Positions 43,494 through 54,954 of a stretch of 60,471 nucleotides of DNA are shown piece by piece (position 1 is the stretch's first letter; every line of letters starts with the position of its first letter). The position numbers and the translations under genes are program-made. Under the pieces are notes generated by a model. The model saw only the letters and a program-made list of their open reading frames with translations, searched no databases and had not been told where the DNA came from. The stretch lies in the sequence record DRR723986_23489, one strand, 5' to 3'.

Positions 43494-44534
43494 TTATTTT
43501 ACTACTTCTAAAACTGATACAGGCTTGGCTTTATTTTTAAGTGTGAACTCTCCTAGATCTTTAAATGTAAACATATCTTGGATTTCAAGGGTACATTTCT
43601 CCAAGATCAAAATTTGGCCAGGAACTGCAGCATTTTGAAGTCTTGCAGCCACATTTACTACATCCCCAATTACCGTATAATCAAGACGTTTCAAAGACTG
43701 CGAACCAATATTTCCAGATACCATTTCACCGGAATTCAGACCAATTGACACTTTAGGGCTAAAATTCGATTTTTCGGAGTACATAGGCATAGCATTCATT
43801 TTATCTCTGATCGCTACACAAGCTCTTAGGGCTCTGGCAATTTGATCTGGACCTTTAAAAACAGCCATCACAGCGTCTCCAATGAATTTGTCCACAGCAC
43901 CTTTTTCCTCAATTATCTCCCGGACCATCAAATCAAAATATTCATTGAGTAGCGGGACTACGATATTAGGCTCTTCATTTTCAGAAATCTTTGTAAACCC
44001 ACATAAATCCACAAAAGCCACGGTGGCCTCCACGGTTTCATTTTCCATCAATGAGGTTTCAGATTCCTTTCCCACCATGAAATTGAGCACAGTCTCATCC
44101 ACATACATTTTCAGAATGTTGTTTTCCCTCATGGCAGTAAGGGTTGATTTGATCTGATTGATGTGCTGCAGTGTCTTCTCAATGGTGATCTCCAAATCCT
44201 GAAAATCTACCGGCTTGGTGATGAAATCAAATGCTCCTCGATTCATCGCGGTGCGGATATTTTCCAAATCGCCATAGGCTGAAATAATTACAGCTTTCAG
44301 CAAAGGGTTTTGCTCTTTCACCTTGGTCAATAGGGTCAAACCGTCCATTTCTGGCATGTTGATGTCACTCAGAATCATGTCGATATCTGGTTGCTCTTTT
44401 AAAATATCTAATGCTTCACGACCATTTAGCGCAAATACAAAATCGTATTCTCCTGCTCTGATCTTACGCCTGAATTTCTGGGTGATAAGGACTTCTAAAT
44501 CTGCCTCATCATCTACTACAAGTATCTTAGACAT
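43494..44534 (-). CDS. Response regulator fused to a class III adenylate/guanylate cyclase (REC-CHD)
   Basis: REC: VVDDE, SDINMP, ISAYGD, TKP. Cyclase: [34 protein letters not shown]. Confidence 0.93.
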
Positions 44535-44545
44535 AGTTTAATTAT

Positions 44546-44929
44546 CTACTCTTGGTTAATAATTTTACCGATTTCTTTACGAAGTGAATCAAAATCAATC
44601 GGTTTTGTGAAAAATTCTTTAGCGCCAGACTCCATTGCTTTTTTAAAATTCTCAGTATCTCCATAAGCAGAAATCATACTGACATTAATAGCTGGAAATT
44701 GGCTTTTCACTCTTTCCAACAATTCTAGGCCTGTCATGCCTGGCATATTGATGTCTGAAAATACATAAACAACCTCGGGTGGGTGCTCGCTATCAAGTAG
44801 CTTCAGTGCCTCATCCCCTGAAAAGGCAAAGGCAAGTTCTAAAAGTCCACTTCTAACTTCTTTTCTAAATTTTTGACGAAAAAGTAGTTCTACGTCTCGC
44901 TCATCATCGACTATTAATATTTTTGTCAT
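44546..44929 (-). CDS. Single-domain (CheY-like) response regulator
   Basis: IVDDE, SDINMPGMTG, ISAYGD and FTKP. 127 aa with no output domain. Confidence 0.93.
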   Translation of the reverse strand: MTKILIVDDERDVELLFRQKFRKEVRSGLLELAFAFSGDEALKLLDSEHPPEVVYVFSDINMPGMTGLELLERVKSQFPAINVSMISAYGDTENFKKAMESGAKEFFTKPIDFDSLRKEIGKIINQE

Positions 44930-45843
44930 GCTGTTGGTGATATGGGTGGTAATGAAATTTCAAATCTGGTAAACTCGCCTTCTTTAGATAAAATCGCCAA
45001 GCTGCCTTTATGGGCTTTCACTATATCGTGCGTTATTGACAAGCCTAAGCCTGTACCTTCTTTTCCTTTTTTTGTGGTAAAAAAGGGCTCCAAAATTTTG
45101 TTCAAAATTGGCTCTGGGATTCCAGCTCCATTGTCTTCTATCTCAGTTATTATTTTAGTTGCCTTTTGTTTAGTTCTTATGATCAGCTTTGGCTGATAGG
45201 TTGGTTTTTGGTCTCCTTCGGAAAGTAAGTTGAGCTTACTTCTCATCGCATCAAATGCATTATTACATAGGTTTACAATCACTCGACTGAAATCTTCTGC
45301 GATGATGGATACCAATCCGATTTCTGAATCTAAATCCCACTCAAAACTCACATTAATTGGGTTTTTACCTGCACGCATCCCATGAAAAGCTAAGTTCACA
45401 AATTCTTGAAGCAAGCCATTCAAGTTTGTCTGCACAAACTCACTCTGCCCACCTCTTGAGTGCATCAACATGGACTTCACTATACCATCAGCGCGCTTTC
45501 CGTGCTGGAGGATTTTTTCAAGGTTTGACCTGATATCATGCAGCAATTCTTCAATATCCGCGATTGTATCGTTTTGCTTTAGGTTTTTGAGCTCCTCTAC
45601 TATCTCCTCTACATACTCTATGCTTAGTTCCGAAAAATTATTGATAAAGTTGATTGGGTTTTTAATCTCATGAGCAATACCTGCAGAAAGTTGCCCGAGA
45701 CTTGCTAGTTTTTCCTGTAATACTAATTGCTCTTGAAGCTCCTGATACCCTTTCAGGGATTTCTCAAGCTCCAGTGTTCTTAGTTTTAGGAGGCGTTTTA
45801 GCTCCTTATTTTTCTCAATCCAATCTTCTTGTACCTTATCCAT
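44926..45843 (-). CDS. Cytoplasmic sensor-less histidine kinase (coiled coil + HisKA + HATPase)
   Basis: [21 protein letters not shown], DNGAG and PFFTTK..GTGLGLS. No TM segment. Confidence 0.92.
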   Translation of the reverse strand: [305 protein letters not shown]

Positions 45844-52500: not shown

Positions 52501-53319
52501 AGAATGGTCTTGTGCAATGCTAATCACTACATCATCTGCTAACCCATCCTCCATTGTGTAAACTTGGAAAGTGTTGCCATCAAATTTGCTTGCGCCACCA
52601 CCATAGGTTCCAAACCAAATATTACCCTCAGAGTCCTCCATTATGCTCAAAATCGCATCATCTCCCAGACCATTTTCAGTGGTATAGTTTGTAAAGACCT
52701 TACCATCATAGCGACTGACTCCACCTCCCACGGTACCAAACCATAGAATGCCATTACTATCTTCCAACGCCACACGAACCGAATTCCCAGCTAATCCCTG
52801 GGAGGTTGTATAATTTGTAAAAGCTATACCATCAAATCTGCTCACACCTCCTCCATTTGTAGCAAACCAAAGATGTCCTCTGCTATCCAAAATGGCGCTG
52901 TTGACTGCATCTAAAGCCAAACCATTGTCAGTCGAGTAATTTTTGAATTGTGAAACTCCCCCGTTGCCTTGGATGAAGGGCTTGCCAGCTGAATCTTTTA
53001 CTAATTGATCATTTTCATCCGTTAAGTAAGGTAAGTTTTGAGAAATTGGGGCTTCTAAATTGACCCGAGACGGTGTGCCAGATTCATTGATGTAGGTATA
53101 AGAGCTTCCAGATTGGGTTGGAACCTTTATTCGGACTGGTTCTGGTCCTTTTGATAAATATGTTTTAATCGGCTGTAATGAGTCTGCGAGATCACTCAGA
53201 GAGTTCATTTGAGGAATAGCCAGTGGAGTAATTGTAGGTGCGTATTTGCCCTCCTGTGGTGTAGCACAGGAAAAAATAAATAGTACGCCTCCTAAAAAAA
53301 AGAGAAAATTTCTCATCAC
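49552..53319 (-). CDS. Sensor histidine kinase: lipobox, about 14-blade Reg_prop double propeller, Y_Y_Y, TM, HisKA/HATPase
   Basis: IFSC lipobox, 42-aa repeats of FTNYTTxQGL...[30 protein letters not shown], and GIAHEIQNP. Confidence 0.93.
51449..52947 (-). repeat. Coding tandem repeat of about 126 nt (42 aa), 12 copies
   Basis: Twelve consecutive, regular propeller blades are readable in the translation. Confidence 0.85.
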
Positions 53320-53571
53320 AAAAACTCAATTTGGTATAAATCCGTTGGCCTAGATGTCCTAAAAAGAATTGTAAAAGGTAAATATATTTTATGCCATATA
53401 AAATGCCTTACACAAAACTATTTTTGCACTTTTTTAATAATTGCTCCAATCTTAACCCACTGCAAAACGTCTGATTCTTACTTATTTCAAAAAGTTTGGG
53501 TATAAGGTAAAATTTGAAAAGTCCAATTTTGAAAAAGTTAATAGGAAGTTTGTTTTGTACTTGTAGGTCTT

Positions 53572-54954
53572 TTAATTGGTTAAAGAAATGAAAAATTCTG
53601 TCCAAGACTCCTGTCCGGTTTCCACCCCACTTGCCTGACTAGTTACTGCCAATTCTCCTCCATGGGCTTTGACTATATCATAGCTCAAGGAGAGGCCTAA
53701 GCCAGTTCCAAGTCCAGATGGTTTGGTCGTAAAAAAGGGCTGAAATATTTTTTCCTTAATAGAGTCTGGCATTCCGGTACCATTATCTTTCACTCGGATC
53801 TCTACTCCATTGCTTATTCGTTTCGTACTCACCCAAACCGTAGGTTTGTAGCTCTTCGCCAGTTCTGTATCCTCCAAGGTGCCTAATATCTTTTTCTTCT
53901 CAGATACAGCATAGAATGCATTGTTCACCAAATTTAGAATCACTCTTCCTATCTCCTGAGGTATGACATCCACTGTTCCCACTTCTTCATCAAAATCAGT
54001 CTCTATGCTTGCATTGAATGACTTATCTTTTGCTCTCAGTCCATGGTAAGAAAGGCGTAGGTATTCATCAGCCAGCTCATTGATATTTGTAGGTTCTTTC
54101 ACCCCAGTACTGCTGCGGCTATGTTGGAGCATTCCCTTTACAATGGCGTCTGCACGCTTTCCGTGATGAACTATCTTCTCCTCATTCGCCTCCAGATCAC
54201 TTACAATAAGCTTTATTTCGTCCAGATCTCCCTTAGCCAATTCTACTTTTAATTCTTCCAGAAGTTCCTTATTTAGCTCAGAAAAATTGTTGACAAAGTT
54301 CAAAGGATTCTGAATCTCATGAGCAATTCCTGCTGTCAGCTCACCTAGTGAGGCCATTTTTTCAGAATGTACTAATTGTGATTGTGCTGCTCTGAGTTCG
54401 TGTAAGGTCTTTTCCAACGACTCTTTTTGGGCAGTGATTTCAGCTGTGCGTTCAGCCACTTGGATTTCCAGAGCGTCTTTTTGTTTTTGGGACTTCTTGA
54501 ATTCAAGCTCTTGGGCTGCAGCTTTAATACGCTCAAGCTCTAAGGCCTTTCTTTGCTTCCTATTAATAATGAATTGAGCGACAAGCCATATCCAGCCAAA
54601 AAGTGCAGCTGTATCAAACCAATTTTCCCAACTGTGATAAAAATCGCTTGCAACCAGCTTAGTGAAATCCTGAATTACATGAATCAATACTACAGGTAAG
54701 AATGCGTATACGTAAGGCTTAAGCGGCGAGAACACATTCCTGTTGTAGGCTGCATAAATAACATAGAGGTTGAGGGAATGAGCAACCCAACGCATCAAAA
54801 TATCTGTTGAGTTGAAAATTACTTGGATAGCCAAAAAACAACTTACAGCTATCAGACCTTTCAAAAATAAGCTTTGCCATTCGGGATAAAGCTCCTTGGT
54901 TTGCGCATGCGTTTGAAGAAATCTAAAAGCAATGATCAGAAGTATAAAATCCAT
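53572..54954 (-). CDS. Multi-TM membrane histidine kinase
   Basis: About 4-5 N-terminal TM segments, a coiled coil, [26 protein letters not shown] and GTGLGLS. Confidence 0.92.
   Translation of the reverse strand: MDFILLIIAFRFLQTHAQTKELYPEWQSLFLKGLIAVSCFLAIQVIFNSTDILMRWVAHSLNLYVIYAAYNRNVFSPLKPYVYAFLPVVLIHVIQDFTKLVASDFYHSWENWFDTAALFGWIWLVAQFIINRKQRKALELERIKAAAQELEFKKSQKQKDALEIQVAERTAEITAQKESLEKTLHELRAAQSQLVHSEKMASLGELTAGIAHEIQNPLNFVNNFSELNKELLEELKVELAKGDLDEIKLIVSDLEANEEKIVHHGKRADAIVKGMLQHSRSSTGVKEPTNINELADEYLRLSYHGLRAKDKSFNASIETDFDEEVGTVDVIPQEIGRVILNLVNNAFYAVSEKKKILGTLEDTELAKSYKPTVWVSTKRISNGVEIRVKDNGTGMPDSIKEKIFQPFFTTKPSGLGTGLGLSLSYDIVKAHGGELAVTSQASGVETGQESWTEFFISLTN

What the first reader, a model, noticed from the sequence alone, without database searches (positions are those of the whole stretch)
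43494..54954. Four paralogous kinases converging on a stand-alone receiver and a REC-adenylate cyclase: candidate many-to-one cyclic-nucleotide signalling hub
Seen in sequence: four co-oriented kinases share almost the same DHp helix ([10 protein letters not shown](T/M)[19 protein letters not shown] in three, [30 protein letters not shown] in the fourth). They are followed by only two receivers, which resemble each other (DDE...QKFR...SDINMP...ISAYGD). Neither receiver has a DNA-binding domain. Five of the six genes are tightly coupled (gaps or overlaps of +2, -8, -4 and +11 nt). Established: residues around the H-box set receiver specificity, and Bacteroidota propeller-Y_Y_Y sensors are best known as HTCS with AraC output inside PULs. 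Inference: several different inputs (two periplasmic propellers, one intramembrane sensor, one sensor-less kinase) are integrated into one second-messenger output, with the single REC acting as a sink or shuttle. I know of no description of this pathway in this phylum, but I could not check the literature.
Basis: partly seen in the sequence, partly recalled or inferred. Interest (0 to 1): 0.85.

Follow-up and report, generated by a model that had tools for sequence, protein, structure and literature searches.

The report
Multi-kinase array feeding receiver-adenylate cyclase
Four sensor kinases with almost the same docking helix sit in front of a small receiver protein and a receiver-controlled cAMP-making enzyme, and this layout recurs in many environmental Bacteroidota, so it is most likely a conserved but unstudied way of merging several signals into one messenger.

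Summary
On the minus strand, 43494-54954 encodes four histidine kinases, a 127-aa receiver (REC) and a 346-aa REC-class III cyclase, with the stated gaps and motifs.

The cyclase keeps the residues typical of class IIIb adenylate cyclases.

The layout is conserved. In the 80 best related loci, 77 have the lone REC directly upstream of the REC-cyclase, 72 have at least one co-oriented kinase of this family, and 42 have at least two.

The kinase docking helix is at least 90% conserved over 143 kinase cores, while the sensor parts differ.

In 301 sampled genomes of the phylum:
- 55 carry the kinase family.
- 53 of those 55 carry either this REC-cyclase (20) or a REC-PP2C phosphatase with an orthologous receiver (35); 2 carry both.
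- Neither regulator was found without the kinases.

The nearest genome has six such kinases but only these two matching receivers.

Many-to-one signalling is therefore well supported by comparative genomics. Phosphotransfer, the lone REC's role and cAMP production remain untested. Nine full-text searches found no description. An earlier scan report noted the cyclase's HD-YitT neighbour in another genome.

The parts
53572..54954 (-). HK1: 460-aa membrane-embedded histidine kinase. It has several hydrophobic segments in residues 1-130 and no Pfam sensor domain. DHp helix 197-226, phospho-His 212.
   Evidence: Relatives of its N-terminal domain lie directly upstream of the lone REC in many other loci.
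53320..53571 (-). 252-nt AT-rich spacer between HK1 and HK2. It may hold an internal promoter; no terminator-like site lies on this strand.
   Evidence: No Rfam match and no credible ORF. It contains TAGTTTTG, which fits the Bacteroidetes -7 box TAnnTTTG as I recall that consensus (not tested).
49552..53319 (-). HK2: 1255-aa kinase with a periplasmic Reg_prop propeller and Y_Y_Y sensor, one membrane helix (about 925-944), DHp 992-1021, His 1007.
   Evidence: Its sensor is 23% identical to HK3's, while its core is 61% identical.
45836..49549 (-). HK3: 1237-aa kinase with a second, divergent Reg_prop and Y_Y_Y sensor, a membrane helix at about 919-945, DHp 983-1012, His 998.
44926..45843 (-). 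HK4: 305-aa soluble kinase core with no sensor domain. It has a variant DHp helix (43-72, His 58). The N, G1 and G2 boxes are intact. It overlaps HK3 by 8 nt and REC by 4 nt.
44546..44929 (-). Stand-alone receiver, 127 aa, with D8/D9, phospho-Asp D59, S87 and K109.
   Evidence: A lone REC sits directly upstream of the REC-cyclase in 77 of 80 related loci.
44175..44534 (-). Receiver domain of the REC-cyclase (residues 1-120), with D8/D9, phospho-Asp D57, S85 and K107. It shares a 4-residue insertion in helix 1 with the lone REC.
44040..44174 (-). Linker of the REC-cyclase (residues 121-165). It includes the nearly invariant [16 protein letters not shown], which aligns with the segment in front of the catalytic domain of the photoactivated cyclase bPAC.
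43494..44039 (-). Class III cyclase catalytic domain (residues 166-346, plus the stop codon). Motifs: [28 protein letters not shown].
   Evidence: The best solved relatives are adenylate cyclases: CyaB 3r5g, bPAC 5mbj and CyaC 1wc0.

Best explanation
This is a dedicated, branched two-component system in which several sensor kinases converge on one receiver pair.

The four kinases here, and most likely the two orphan paralogues elsewhere in the genome, sense different things. HK2 and HK3 have different periplasmic propeller sensors. HK1 has a membrane-embedded sensor. HK4 has no sensor of its own. All six keep the same receiver-docking (DHp) surface. They therefore pass phosphate to the same two receivers: the lone REC and the receiver of the REC-cyclase.

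Phosphorylation of Asp57 changes the receiver. Through the conserved helical linker it switches the homodimeric class IIIb cyclase domain, which makes cAMP from ATP. The lone REC competes for the same phosphate, or feeds back on the kinases. It thereby sets the gain and timing of the cyclase branch, and it may have protein targets of its own. cAMP would then be read by the genome's cNMP-binding (Crp/Fnr-like) proteins.

Shown here: gene content, intact catalytic and phospho-acceptor residues, conservation of the operon, and co-occurrence of the kinase and receiver families.

Inferred: phosphotransfer itself, activation rather than inhibition by phosphorylation, cAMP as the product, and the role of the lone REC.
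For: Anatomy
- The operon holds four kinases, a REC and a REC-cyclase.
- The H, N, G1 and G2 boxes are present in all four kinases. DD, D, S and K are present in both receivers.
- The cyclase aligns best to solved adenylate cyclases: CyaB 3r5g at E 2e-25, then bPAC and CyaC. Its metal-binding Asp, Lys, Thr, Asn and Arg motifs are at least 90% conserved in 79 orthologues.

Dedicated pairing
- Among the 80 best loci found with the REC-cyclase, 77 have the lone REC directly upstream. 72 have at least one and 42 at least two co-oriented kinases of this family. 31 of the chains are cut short by a contig end.
- The DHp helix 1 is at least 90% conserved at nearly every position over 143 kinase cores.
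- HK2 and HK3 are 23% identical in the sensor and 61% in the core.
- In G001 only six kinases belong to the family (E 1e-72 or better; the next is 1e-40). The two orphans have no regulator beside them.
- The two receivers are each other's closest relatives in G001. They share a 4-residue insertion in helix 1, the kinase-contacting helix, that the three next-closest receivers aligned lack.

Phylogenetic profile in 301 genomes
- The kinase family is in 55, the REC-cyclase in 20 (all 20 also have the kinases) and full-length REC-PP2C in 35 (all 35 also have the kinases).
- 53 of the 55 kinase-positive genomes have one of the two regulators.
- The 20 cyclase-positive genomes have 2 to 8 kinases each, where 8 is the scoring cap, and 1 or 2 REC-cyclases.

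Downstream readers
- G001 has 9 cNMP_binding matches above the Pfam cut-off.
Against: - There is no biochemical or expression evidence. No RNA run holds the locus.
- The extreme DHp conservation could partly reflect structural constraint on the family rather than partner choice.
- The kinases serve a REC-PP2C output in other lineages, so they are not specific to cAMP.
- HK1 is separated by 252 nt and may be regulated apart.
- HK4's docking helix differs at several positions.
- G001 has an orphan REC-sigma54 activator whose receiver is 39% identical to that of the REC-cyclase. It could be a further target, although it lacks the helix-1 insertion.
- 2 of 55 kinase-positive genomes showed neither regulator at E 1e-60.
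- The genome searches scored only the best 6 to 8 candidates per genome, and related genomes are not independent.
- In 8 of 80 loci no kinase lay within the 700-nt chaining rule; 4 of those were at a contig end.
- The catalytic-residue roles are assigned from my recollection of class III cyclase literature and applied to the alignment.
Confidence: 0.7

Rival explanations
1. The lone REC is a shuttle in a phosphorelay: kinase His, then REC Asp, then Hpt His, then REC-cyclase Asp, as in KinA-E, Spo0F, Spo0B and Spo0A.
For: A single-domain receiver sits between the kinases and the output regulator in 77 of 80 loci. Spo0F is among the solved receivers most similar to the receiver of the REC-cyclase.
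Against: - No Hpt or Spo0B-like domain is found in any of the six genes.
- There is no spare ORF in the cluster or in the 252-nt gap.
- Both receivers carry the same helix-1 insertion, which suggests that both dock on the kinases directly.
- An Hpt gene elsewhere in the genome was not searched for.
Confidence: 0.08
2. The kinases are insulated from each other and each serves a regulator encoded elsewhere. The clustering with the two receivers is genomic coincidence or applies to one kinase only.
For: G001 has about 55 receiver matches, including an orphan REC-sigma54 activator. HK1 stands apart by 252 nt.
Against: - The kinase family was found with one of the two receiver-output proteins in 53 of 55 genomes, and those proteins never without it.
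- The gene order is conserved across the phylum.
- The paralogues have not diverged in the docking helix, as insulated paralogues would be expected to (this expectation is recalled from the literature on two-component specificity).
Confidence: 0.05
3. The lone REC is the main output, a CheY- or DivK-like protein-binding switch. The cyclase is a side branch, or is regulated mainly by something other than phosphorylation, for example bicarbonate as in some class IIIb enzymes.
For: - The lone REC is the constant partner of the kinases, whereas the enzymatic regulator is exchanged between cyclase and PP2C in different lineages.
- The lone REC is itself strongly conserved.
- The Thr in place of Asp is typical of the bicarbonate-responsive IIIb group (recalled).
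Against: - The receiver of the REC-cyclase keeps all phospho-acceptor residues and is at least as conserved as the lone REC.
- The linker is nearly invariant, which argues for signal transfer from the receiver to the catalytic domain.
Confidence: 0.12
4. The cyclase makes a nucleotide other than cAMP, such as cGMP or a pyrimidine cyclic nucleotide.
For: - Pfam PF00211 covers both adenylate and guanylate cyclases.
- In 9 other loci a small membrane protein of the PycTM family (named after a Pycsar effector) follows the cyclase gene.
Against: - The top solved relatives are all adenylate cyclases.
- The Lys (DKFIGD) and Thr (DYTVIGD) pair is the adenylate-type signature as I recall it, and it is conserved.
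- This is a conserved chromosomal two-component operon, not a defence island.
Confidence: 0.08

Closest known systems
DivJ/PleC to DivK + PleD of Caulobacter (recalled, not read here)
   Same: Two or more kinases share one receiver pair. That pair is encoded as an operon of a single-domain receiver and a receiver-fused nucleotide cyclase. The single-domain receiver modulates the system.
   Different: - PleD is a GGDEF diguanylate cyclase with two receivers; here the output is a class III adenylate-type cyclase with one.
- The kinases here are encoded in the same operon and number 2 to at least 8 per genome.
- It is a different phylum.
- Feedback by the lone REC is not shown here.
CyaC of Spirulina and Anabaena (class IIIb cyclase activated by autophosphorylation and phosphotransfer). 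The title of Kasahara & Ohmori 1999 was seen in the reference list of PMC1183210. The structure 1wc0 is a hit.
   Same: A class IIIb catalytic domain (E 5e-21 to 1wc0) controlled by a receiver domain that is phosphorylated by a histidine kinase.
   Different: CyaC carries receiver, GAF, kinase, receiver and cyclase in one polypeptide (recalled). Here the kinases, the lone REC and the REC-cyclase are separate proteins, and several kinases are present.
Many-to-one integration: KinA-E to Spo0F, and the Vibrio quorum-sensing kinases to LuxU (passages and Table 6 of the review PMC12471899)
   Same: Several kinases with different inputs phosphorylate one receiver or transfer protein.
   Different: Those are phosphorelays that end in a transcription factor. 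Here no Hpt is present and the output is an enzyme making a second messenger.
Bacteroides hybrid two-component systems (HTCS; recalled)
   Same: HK2 and HK3 have the same kind of periplasmic Reg_prop propeller and Y_Y_Y sensor.
   Different: - There is no fused receiver and no AraC DNA-binding domain.
- No SusC/SusD-type Pfam family was reported for any of the 39 window proteins scanned.
- The output is a separate receiver pair.
Sister system found here: [kinases]-REC-REC-PP2C (SpoIIE) in other Bacteroidota
   Same: - The same kinase family and docking helix.
- The same lone REC.
- The output regulator's receiver is 63% identical to that of the REC-cyclase and has the same helix-1 insertion.
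   Different: The output domain is a PP2C-type phosphatase instead of a cyclase. It was found in 35 of 301 genomes against 20 for the cyclase, and 2 genomes have both.
MrrA, a single-domain response regulator acting as an integrating hub in Caulobacter (PMC5964349; only the title and start of the abstract were seen, in the listing)
   Same: A lone receiver collects input and coordinates downstream branches.
   Different: MrrA feeds the general stress response. No cyclase is involved, and it is not encoded with a kinase array.

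Membership tests
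Class III nucleotide cyclase (Pfam PF00211), subclass IIIb adenylate cyclase | Catalytic domain matches the family model above its curated cut-off | tested here: met
   80.2 bits against a cut-off of 21.9, residues 167-337.
Class III nucleotide cyclase (Pfam PF00211), subclass IIIb adenylate cyclase | Two metal-binding Asp, the substrate Lys, Thr in place of the substrate Asp (IIIb), and the transition-state Asn and Arg. The residue roles are recalled from the literature. | tested here: met
   [21 protein letters not shown] and VNVAARL align to the same motifs of P. aeruginosa CyaB 3r5g. They are at least 90% conserved in 79 orthologues.
Class III nucleotide cyclase (Pfam PF00211), subclass IIIb adenylate cyclase | Makes cAMP from ATP as a homodimer | not testable with these tools
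   This needs an enzyme assay.
Two-component receiver (PF00072) that can be phosphorylated | Acidic pair, phospho-acceptor Asp, Ser/Thr and Lys of the receiver fold | tested here: met
   REC has D8/D9, D59, S87 and K109. REC-cyclase has D8/D9, D57, S85 and K107. These are conserved in 78 and 79 orthologues.
HisKA-type histidine kinase | H box plus N, G1 and G2 boxes of the ATPase domain | tested here: met
   All four kinases: His 212, 1007, 998 and 58, with N, G1 and G2 motifs present. No NCBIfam equivalog reached its cut-off; the best were AtoS-, EspC- and VirA-like models far below threshold.
Bacteroides-type hybrid two-component system (HTCS) | Propeller and Y_Y_Y sensor, kinase, receiver and AraC DNA-binding domain in one protein | tested here: not met
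   HK2 and HK3 have the sensor and the kinase but no receiver and no HTH_AraC.
Multi-step phosphorelay (Spo0F/Spo0B or Hpt type) | A His-containing phosphotransfer protein or domain between two receivers | tested here: not met
   No Hpt or Spo0B-like Pfam hit in the six genes, and no further ORF in the cluster. The rest of the genome was not searched for Hpt.
Branched many-to-one two-component pathway (DivJ/PleC-DivK/PleD-like) | Operon of a single-domain receiver and a receiver-nucleotide cyclase | tested here: met
   REC and REC-cyclase are 11 nt apart. The pair is conserved in 77 of 80 loci. The cyclase is class III, not GGDEF.
Branched many-to-one two-component pathway (DivJ/PleC-DivK/PleD-like) | Two or more kinases phosphorylate the same receivers | not testable with these tools
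   Supported indirectly by co-occurrence, the shared docking helix and the shared receiver helix-1 insertion. Phosphotransfer assays are needed.
Pycsar anti-phage cyclase system | Stand-alone pyrimidine cyclase next to a cNMP-activated effector, in a defence context | tested here: not met
   The cyclase is fused to a receiver and sits in a two-component operon. No effector gene is adjacent in the window. Its closest solved relatives are adenylate cyclases. The PADLOC library was not scanned.

The most novel reading that the evidence does not exclude
Environmental Bacteroidota share a modular 'signal-integration chassis'. It consists of an expandable array of kinases with interchangeable sensors (propellers, membrane sensors, very large unknown ectodomains, sensor-less cores) and a near-frozen docking helix, plus a constant lone receiver that couples the kinases to each other in the manner of DivK. 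The output regulator is exchangeable and either makes cAMP or starts a PP2C partner-switch. In the cyclase lineages this would be the main way in which cell-surface sensing, possibly of glycans, sets cellular cAMP, in a phylum long regarded as poor in adenylate cyclases.
Probability: 0.25. Interest if true: 0.8.

Novelty: new variant of a known kind. Interest (0 to 1): 0.6.

Why it matters
Many-to-one two-component pathways are known from a few model cases and are usually discovered one kinase at a time. Here the convergence can be read from the genome. A kinase family occurs in 2 to at least 8 copies per genome. It keeps one docking surface and is found almost only together with one receiver pair.

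This offers a natural system for asking how several kinases share a receiver without harmful cross-talk, and what a lone receiver contributes.

It also gives a concrete entry point to cAMP signalling in Bacteroidota. The 2005 census of Galperin (PMC1183210, passages read) found no adenylate cyclases in the four genomes then available. In this sample the REC-cyclase was not found in the largest family sampled (0 of 63) but was found in 20 of 301 genomes.

The alternative PP2C output shows that one input layer can be rewired to very different outputs.

Tried and rejected
- Whole genome of the window: none is held. I used the nearest genome, G001, instead. It shares 79% of sampled words and has an identical REC-cyclase.
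- Expression: no RNA holder is listed for the locus, so operon structure and expression could not be checked.
- Promoter and terminator scans are at chance level: 28 promoter-like sites against 32.4 expected, and 10 terminator-like sites against 11.4 expected. They say nothing about the 252-nt gap.
- Rfam found nothing in 42300-56300.
- Kinase-core tree and nearest-neighbour counts. Cores are about as alike between genomes (64%) as within one locus (69%). The nearest neighbour comes from the same locus for 35 of 117 cores. HK1-type cores have an HK1-type nearest neighbour in 16 of 27 cases. I therefore draw no conclusion about concerted evolution or about the age of the sensor classes.
- Conserved downstream partner: the radical SAM/SPASM gene after the cyclase (42444-43448) recurs only in 2 close relatives, L018 and L056. 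I do not count it as part of the system.
- NCBIfam gave no family-level name for any of the six proteins.
- Complex and structure prediction were not run. A kinase-receiver pair or a cyclase homodimer would pass by likeness to solved structures and would not separate the explanations.
- Literature: nine full-text searches found no description of this operon. Subscription-only papers are not covered.

Full report
**1. What is there**

The minus strand of 43494-54954 carries six genes:

| Gene | Coordinates | Length |
|---|---|---|
| HK1 | 53572-54954 | 460 aa |
| HK2 | 49552-53319 | 1255 aa |
| HK3 | 45836-49549 | 1237 aa |
| HK4 | 44926-45843 | 305 aa |
| REC | 44546-44929 | 127 aa |
| REC-cyclase | 43494-44534 | 346 aa |

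The spacings are 252, +2, -8, -4 and +11 nt.

Pfam finds HisKA and HATPase_c in all four kinases. HK2 and HK3 also have Reg_prop and Y_Y_Y. The two small proteins have Response_reg, and the last one has Guanylate_cyc. Neither receiver has a DNA-binding domain.

The sensors differ:
- HK2 and HK3 have an N-terminal hydrophobic segment and a single further one near residue 930. About 900 residues therefore lie outside the membrane.
- HK1 has several hydrophobic segments in its first 130 residues and no recognisable sensor domain.
- HK4 has no hydrophobic segment at all.

**2. The enzymes look functional**

All four kinases keep the phospho-acceptor His and the N, G1 and G2 boxes. Both receivers keep the acidic pair, the acceptor Asp (D59 and D57), the Ser and the Lys.

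The catalytic domain is closest to solved adenylate cyclases:
- P. aeruginosa CyaB 3r5g, E 2e-25
- the photoactivated cyclase bPAC 5mbj, E 2e-22
- Spirulina CyaC 1wc0, E 5e-21

In the alignment to CyaB, the motifs [21 protein letters not shown] and VNVAARL match the corresponding CyaB motifs. As I recall the class III literature, these hold the two metal-binding Asp, the adenine-specifying Lys, the Thr that replaces Asp in subclass IIIb, and the transition-state Asn and Arg. They are at least 90% conserved in 79 orthologues.

The alignment to bPAC starts at residue 124. It includes the linker [16 protein letters not shown], which is nearly invariant in the family. This fits a receiver that acts on the catalytic dimer through a helical connector.

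**3. The layout is conserved across Bacteroidota**

Of these, 593 encode a relative, and the best 80 (59-77% identical) were kept. By record title they come from Algoriphagus, other Cyclobacteriaceae, Chitinophagaceae, Flavobacteriaceae, Mucilaginibacter, Hymenobacter, Saprospiraceae, Prolixibacteraceae and others.

I called ORFs in these 80 loci and matched them to domain queries cut from the window's proteins. I chained co-oriented genes that were no more than 700 nt apart:
- 77 of 80 loci have a lone REC directly upstream of the REC-cyclase.
- 72 have at least one kinase of this family in the chain.
- 42 have at least two, and some have up to five.
- 31 chains run into a contig end, so these are lower bounds.
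- Of the 8 loci without a chained kinase, 4 are at a contig end.

The sensors in the arrays vary. They include propellers, relatives of HK1's membrane domain (often the gene next to the REC) and very large proteins of 1400-2600 aa without a match to my queries.

**4. The kinases are one sharply bounded family with a near-frozen docking helix**

HK-core scores against the 80 loci are bimodal: roughly 150 hits at about 150 bits or more, and a dozen at 68 bits or less.

Over 143 full-length cores, the helix [30 protein letters not shown] is at least 90% conserved at nearly every position. So are [17 protein letters not shown] and [17 protein letters not shown].

Within the window, HK2 and HK3 are 23% identical in the sensor and 61% in the core. 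Cores are about as similar between genomes (64%) as within a locus (69%). The family as a whole is therefore held in place, and the paralogues have not drifted apart. From the literature on two-component specificity, as I recall it, paralogous kinases that serve different regulators diverge at exactly this surface. Its constancy here fits shared partners, although structural constraint may contribute.

**5. Genome-wide count**

No assembly of the window's own genome is held. The nearest one, G001, shares 79% of sampled words and has an identical REC-cyclase.

G001 has six kinases of the family at E 1e-72 or better; the next hit is at 1e-40. They are the four of this cluster and two tandem genes about 300 kb away on the same contig. 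One of those is a 1295-aa propeller and Y_Y_Y kinase. The other is 1613 aa with an unknown sensor. Neither has a regulator next to it. Five of the six are 63-67% identical in the core with the same helix 1. HK4 is the outlier at 47%.

On the receiver side, the closest relative of the REC-cyclase's receiver is the lone REC (48%). Next is an orphan REC-sigma54 activator (39%). The two cluster receivers share a 4-residue insertion in helix 1 (D[VL]E[LV]L..QKFR). The three next-closest receivers that I aligned lack it.

So there are six kinases for two matching receivers.

**6. Phylogenetic profile**

I searched the same 301 genomes of the phylum (at least 90% complete) three times at E 1e-60.

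| Protein | Genomes with a match |
|---|---|
| Kinase core | 55 |
| REC-cyclase | 20 (all 20 also have the kinase) |
| REC-SpoIIE/PP2C regulator, any match | 41 |
| REC-SpoIIE/PP2C regulator, full length | 35 (all 35 also have the kinase) |

Six of the 41 PP2C matches cover only the phosphatase part of larger proteins, and I set them aside. Two genomes have both regulators. Thus 53 of 55 kinase-positive genomes have one of the two regulators. G094 and G182 have neither at this threshold. The remaining 246 genomes have none of the three.

The 20 cyclase-positive genomes show 2 to 8 kinase matches, where 8 is the number of candidates scored, and one or two REC-cyclases.

A direct search with the cyclase domain alone in five kinase-positive, cyclase-negative genomes found only distant cyclases, 35-41% identical.

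Caveats: only the best 6-8 candidates per genome were scored, the threshold is mine, and related genomes are not independent.

**7. A sister system**

In kinase-positive genomes without the cyclase, the arrays end in lone REC plus REC-PP2C (loci L098, L100 and L102). The kinases there carry the same docking helix, and both receivers carry the same helix-1 insertion. The receiver of one such REC-PP2C is 63% identical to that of the window's REC-cyclase.

FIST-domain proteins are interspersed in some of these arrays.

G001 has no REC-PP2C of this type.

The constant part of the system is therefore the kinase array plus the lone REC. The enzymatic regulator has been exchanged between a cyclase and a phosphatase.

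**8. How it most likely works**

Different stimuli act on different kinases. All kinases pass phosphate directly to the lone REC and to Asp57 of the REC-cyclase. The phosphorylated receiver switches the dimeric catalytic domain through the conserved linker, and cAMP is made.

The lone REC competes for phosphate or feeds back on the kinases. A relay through the lone REC is less likely, because there is no Hpt domain or spare ORF in the cluster.

Possible readers and removers of cAMP exist in G001:
- nine cNMP_binding matches above the Pfam cut-off
- an HD hydrolase and a YitT membrane protein, encoded separately

In about 24 of the 80 other loci, HD, YitT or an HD-YitT fusion lies beside the cyclase. 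This agrees with an earlier report of this scan on another genome.

None of these steps has been tested biochemically. I put the overall reading at 0.7.

**9. Comparison with what is known**

It works most like DivJ/PleC acting on DivK and PleD in Caulobacter (recalled). There, several kinases serve one operon-encoded pair of a lone receiver and a receiver-nucleotide cyclase. Here the cyclase is class III rather than GGDEF, and the kinases sit in the same operon.

Receiver control of a class IIIb cyclase is known from cyanobacterial CyaC, where everything is fused in one protein (reference seen).

Many-to-one integration is textbook for KinA-E to Spo0F and for LuxU (review passages).

HK2 and HK3 share their sensor type with Bacteroides hybrid two-component systems. 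They fail that family's defining features, because they have no fused receiver and no AraC domain. No SusC/SusD-type Pfam family was reported for any of the 39 window proteins scanned.

Another report of this scan called a kinase, lone REC and REC-cyclase operon in a Rokubacteria-type genome ordinary. I did not test whether that one is homologous.

**10. Novelty**

Nine full-text searches found no description of this operon or of receiver-controlled cAMP synthesis in Bacteroidota. NCBIfam has no specific model for any of the six proteins. The 2005 census noted no adenylate cyclases in the four Bacteroidetes genomes then known (PMC1183210, passages read).

All the parts are of known kinds. What is new is the combination:
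- a multi-copy kinase family with one docking surface
- a constant lone receiver
- an exchangeable enzymatic regulator
- phylum-wide conservation

I rate it a new variant of a known kind, with interest 0.6.

Noticed in passing
L011 (G001:C2:22000-41000), 3518-14305: Two tandem DUF6090 genes lie directly upstream of the two orphan kinases of the same family (1295 aa propeller type and 1613 aa). Relatives of DUF6090 also lie beside the arrays or the REC-cyclase in L015, L016, L017, L026, L034, L086 and L094, with four tandem copies in L094. None is in the window.
   Followed up: partly
L039 11426-12886 and about 23 further loci; G001 copies in L095 and L096: An HD-YitT fusion, or separate HD and YitT genes, lies next to the REC-cyclase in about 24 of 80 loci. 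In G001 the two are encoded apart and elsewhere. This agrees with an earlier scan report that read the HD part as a possible cAMP phosphodiesterase.
   Followed up: partly
L026 2491-3054 and 8 further loci; L096 886-1446 (G001:C5): A roughly 187-aa membrane protein matching Pfam PycTM (Pycsar effector family, E 2e-13) follows the REC-cyclase on the same strand in 9 loci, by title mostly Flavobacteriaceae. In G001 its relative sits directly in front of the HD gene.
   Followed up: partly
L098, L100, L102, L103 (other Bacteroidota genomes): This is the sister system with a REC-PP2C (SpoIIE) output. One to several stand-alone FIST-domain proteins, and in L098 a five-GAF protein, are interspersed among the kinases.
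   Followed up: partly
window 30495-42324 (minus strand): Directly downstream of the signalling genes, and co-oriented with them, lies a polysaccharide locus. It holds a Wza-like exporter, a Wzz-like protein, a flippase, a GT2, a 2OG-Fe(II) oxygenase, a Wzy-like protein and three GT4 genes. The flippase (Polysacc_synt) is split into two ORFs, 38060-38668 and 37373-38047, which may be a frameshift or a sequencing error. The linkage with the cyclase is not conserved in other genomes.
   Followed up: no
L013 6490-11619 (G001:C3); L055 11424-16496: G001's second class III cyclase is a 1709-aa Ser/Thr kinase, AAA_16, GAF and cyclase protein. In L055, a 1690-aa ORF with a cyclase-domain match (no other domains scanned) lies convergent to the REC-cyclase.
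   Followed up: no
L014 5574-6731 (G001:C12): An orphan 385-aa REC-sigma54 activator with no DNA-binding domain detected and no kinase nearby. Its receiver is the third closest to that of the REC-cyclase (39%) but lacks the helix-1 insertion.
   Followed up: partly
L017, L018, L076: Contigs filed under Limnohabitans, Planctomycetota and Cyanobium genome bins carry this Bacteroidota operon at 62-75% identity. These are probably binning errors.
   Followed up: no
window 16002-20533: Two PorP/SprF genes lie here. A 690-aa SprB-repeat protein with a CHU_C type IX secretion signal sits between them.
   Followed up: no
L037 12706-21406 and L045 10751-16115: A second, different cyclase module lies close to the operon on the opposite strand. 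It comprises a hybrid kinase-receiver, a lone REC and a 559-aa protein with a cyclase domain.
   Followed up: no
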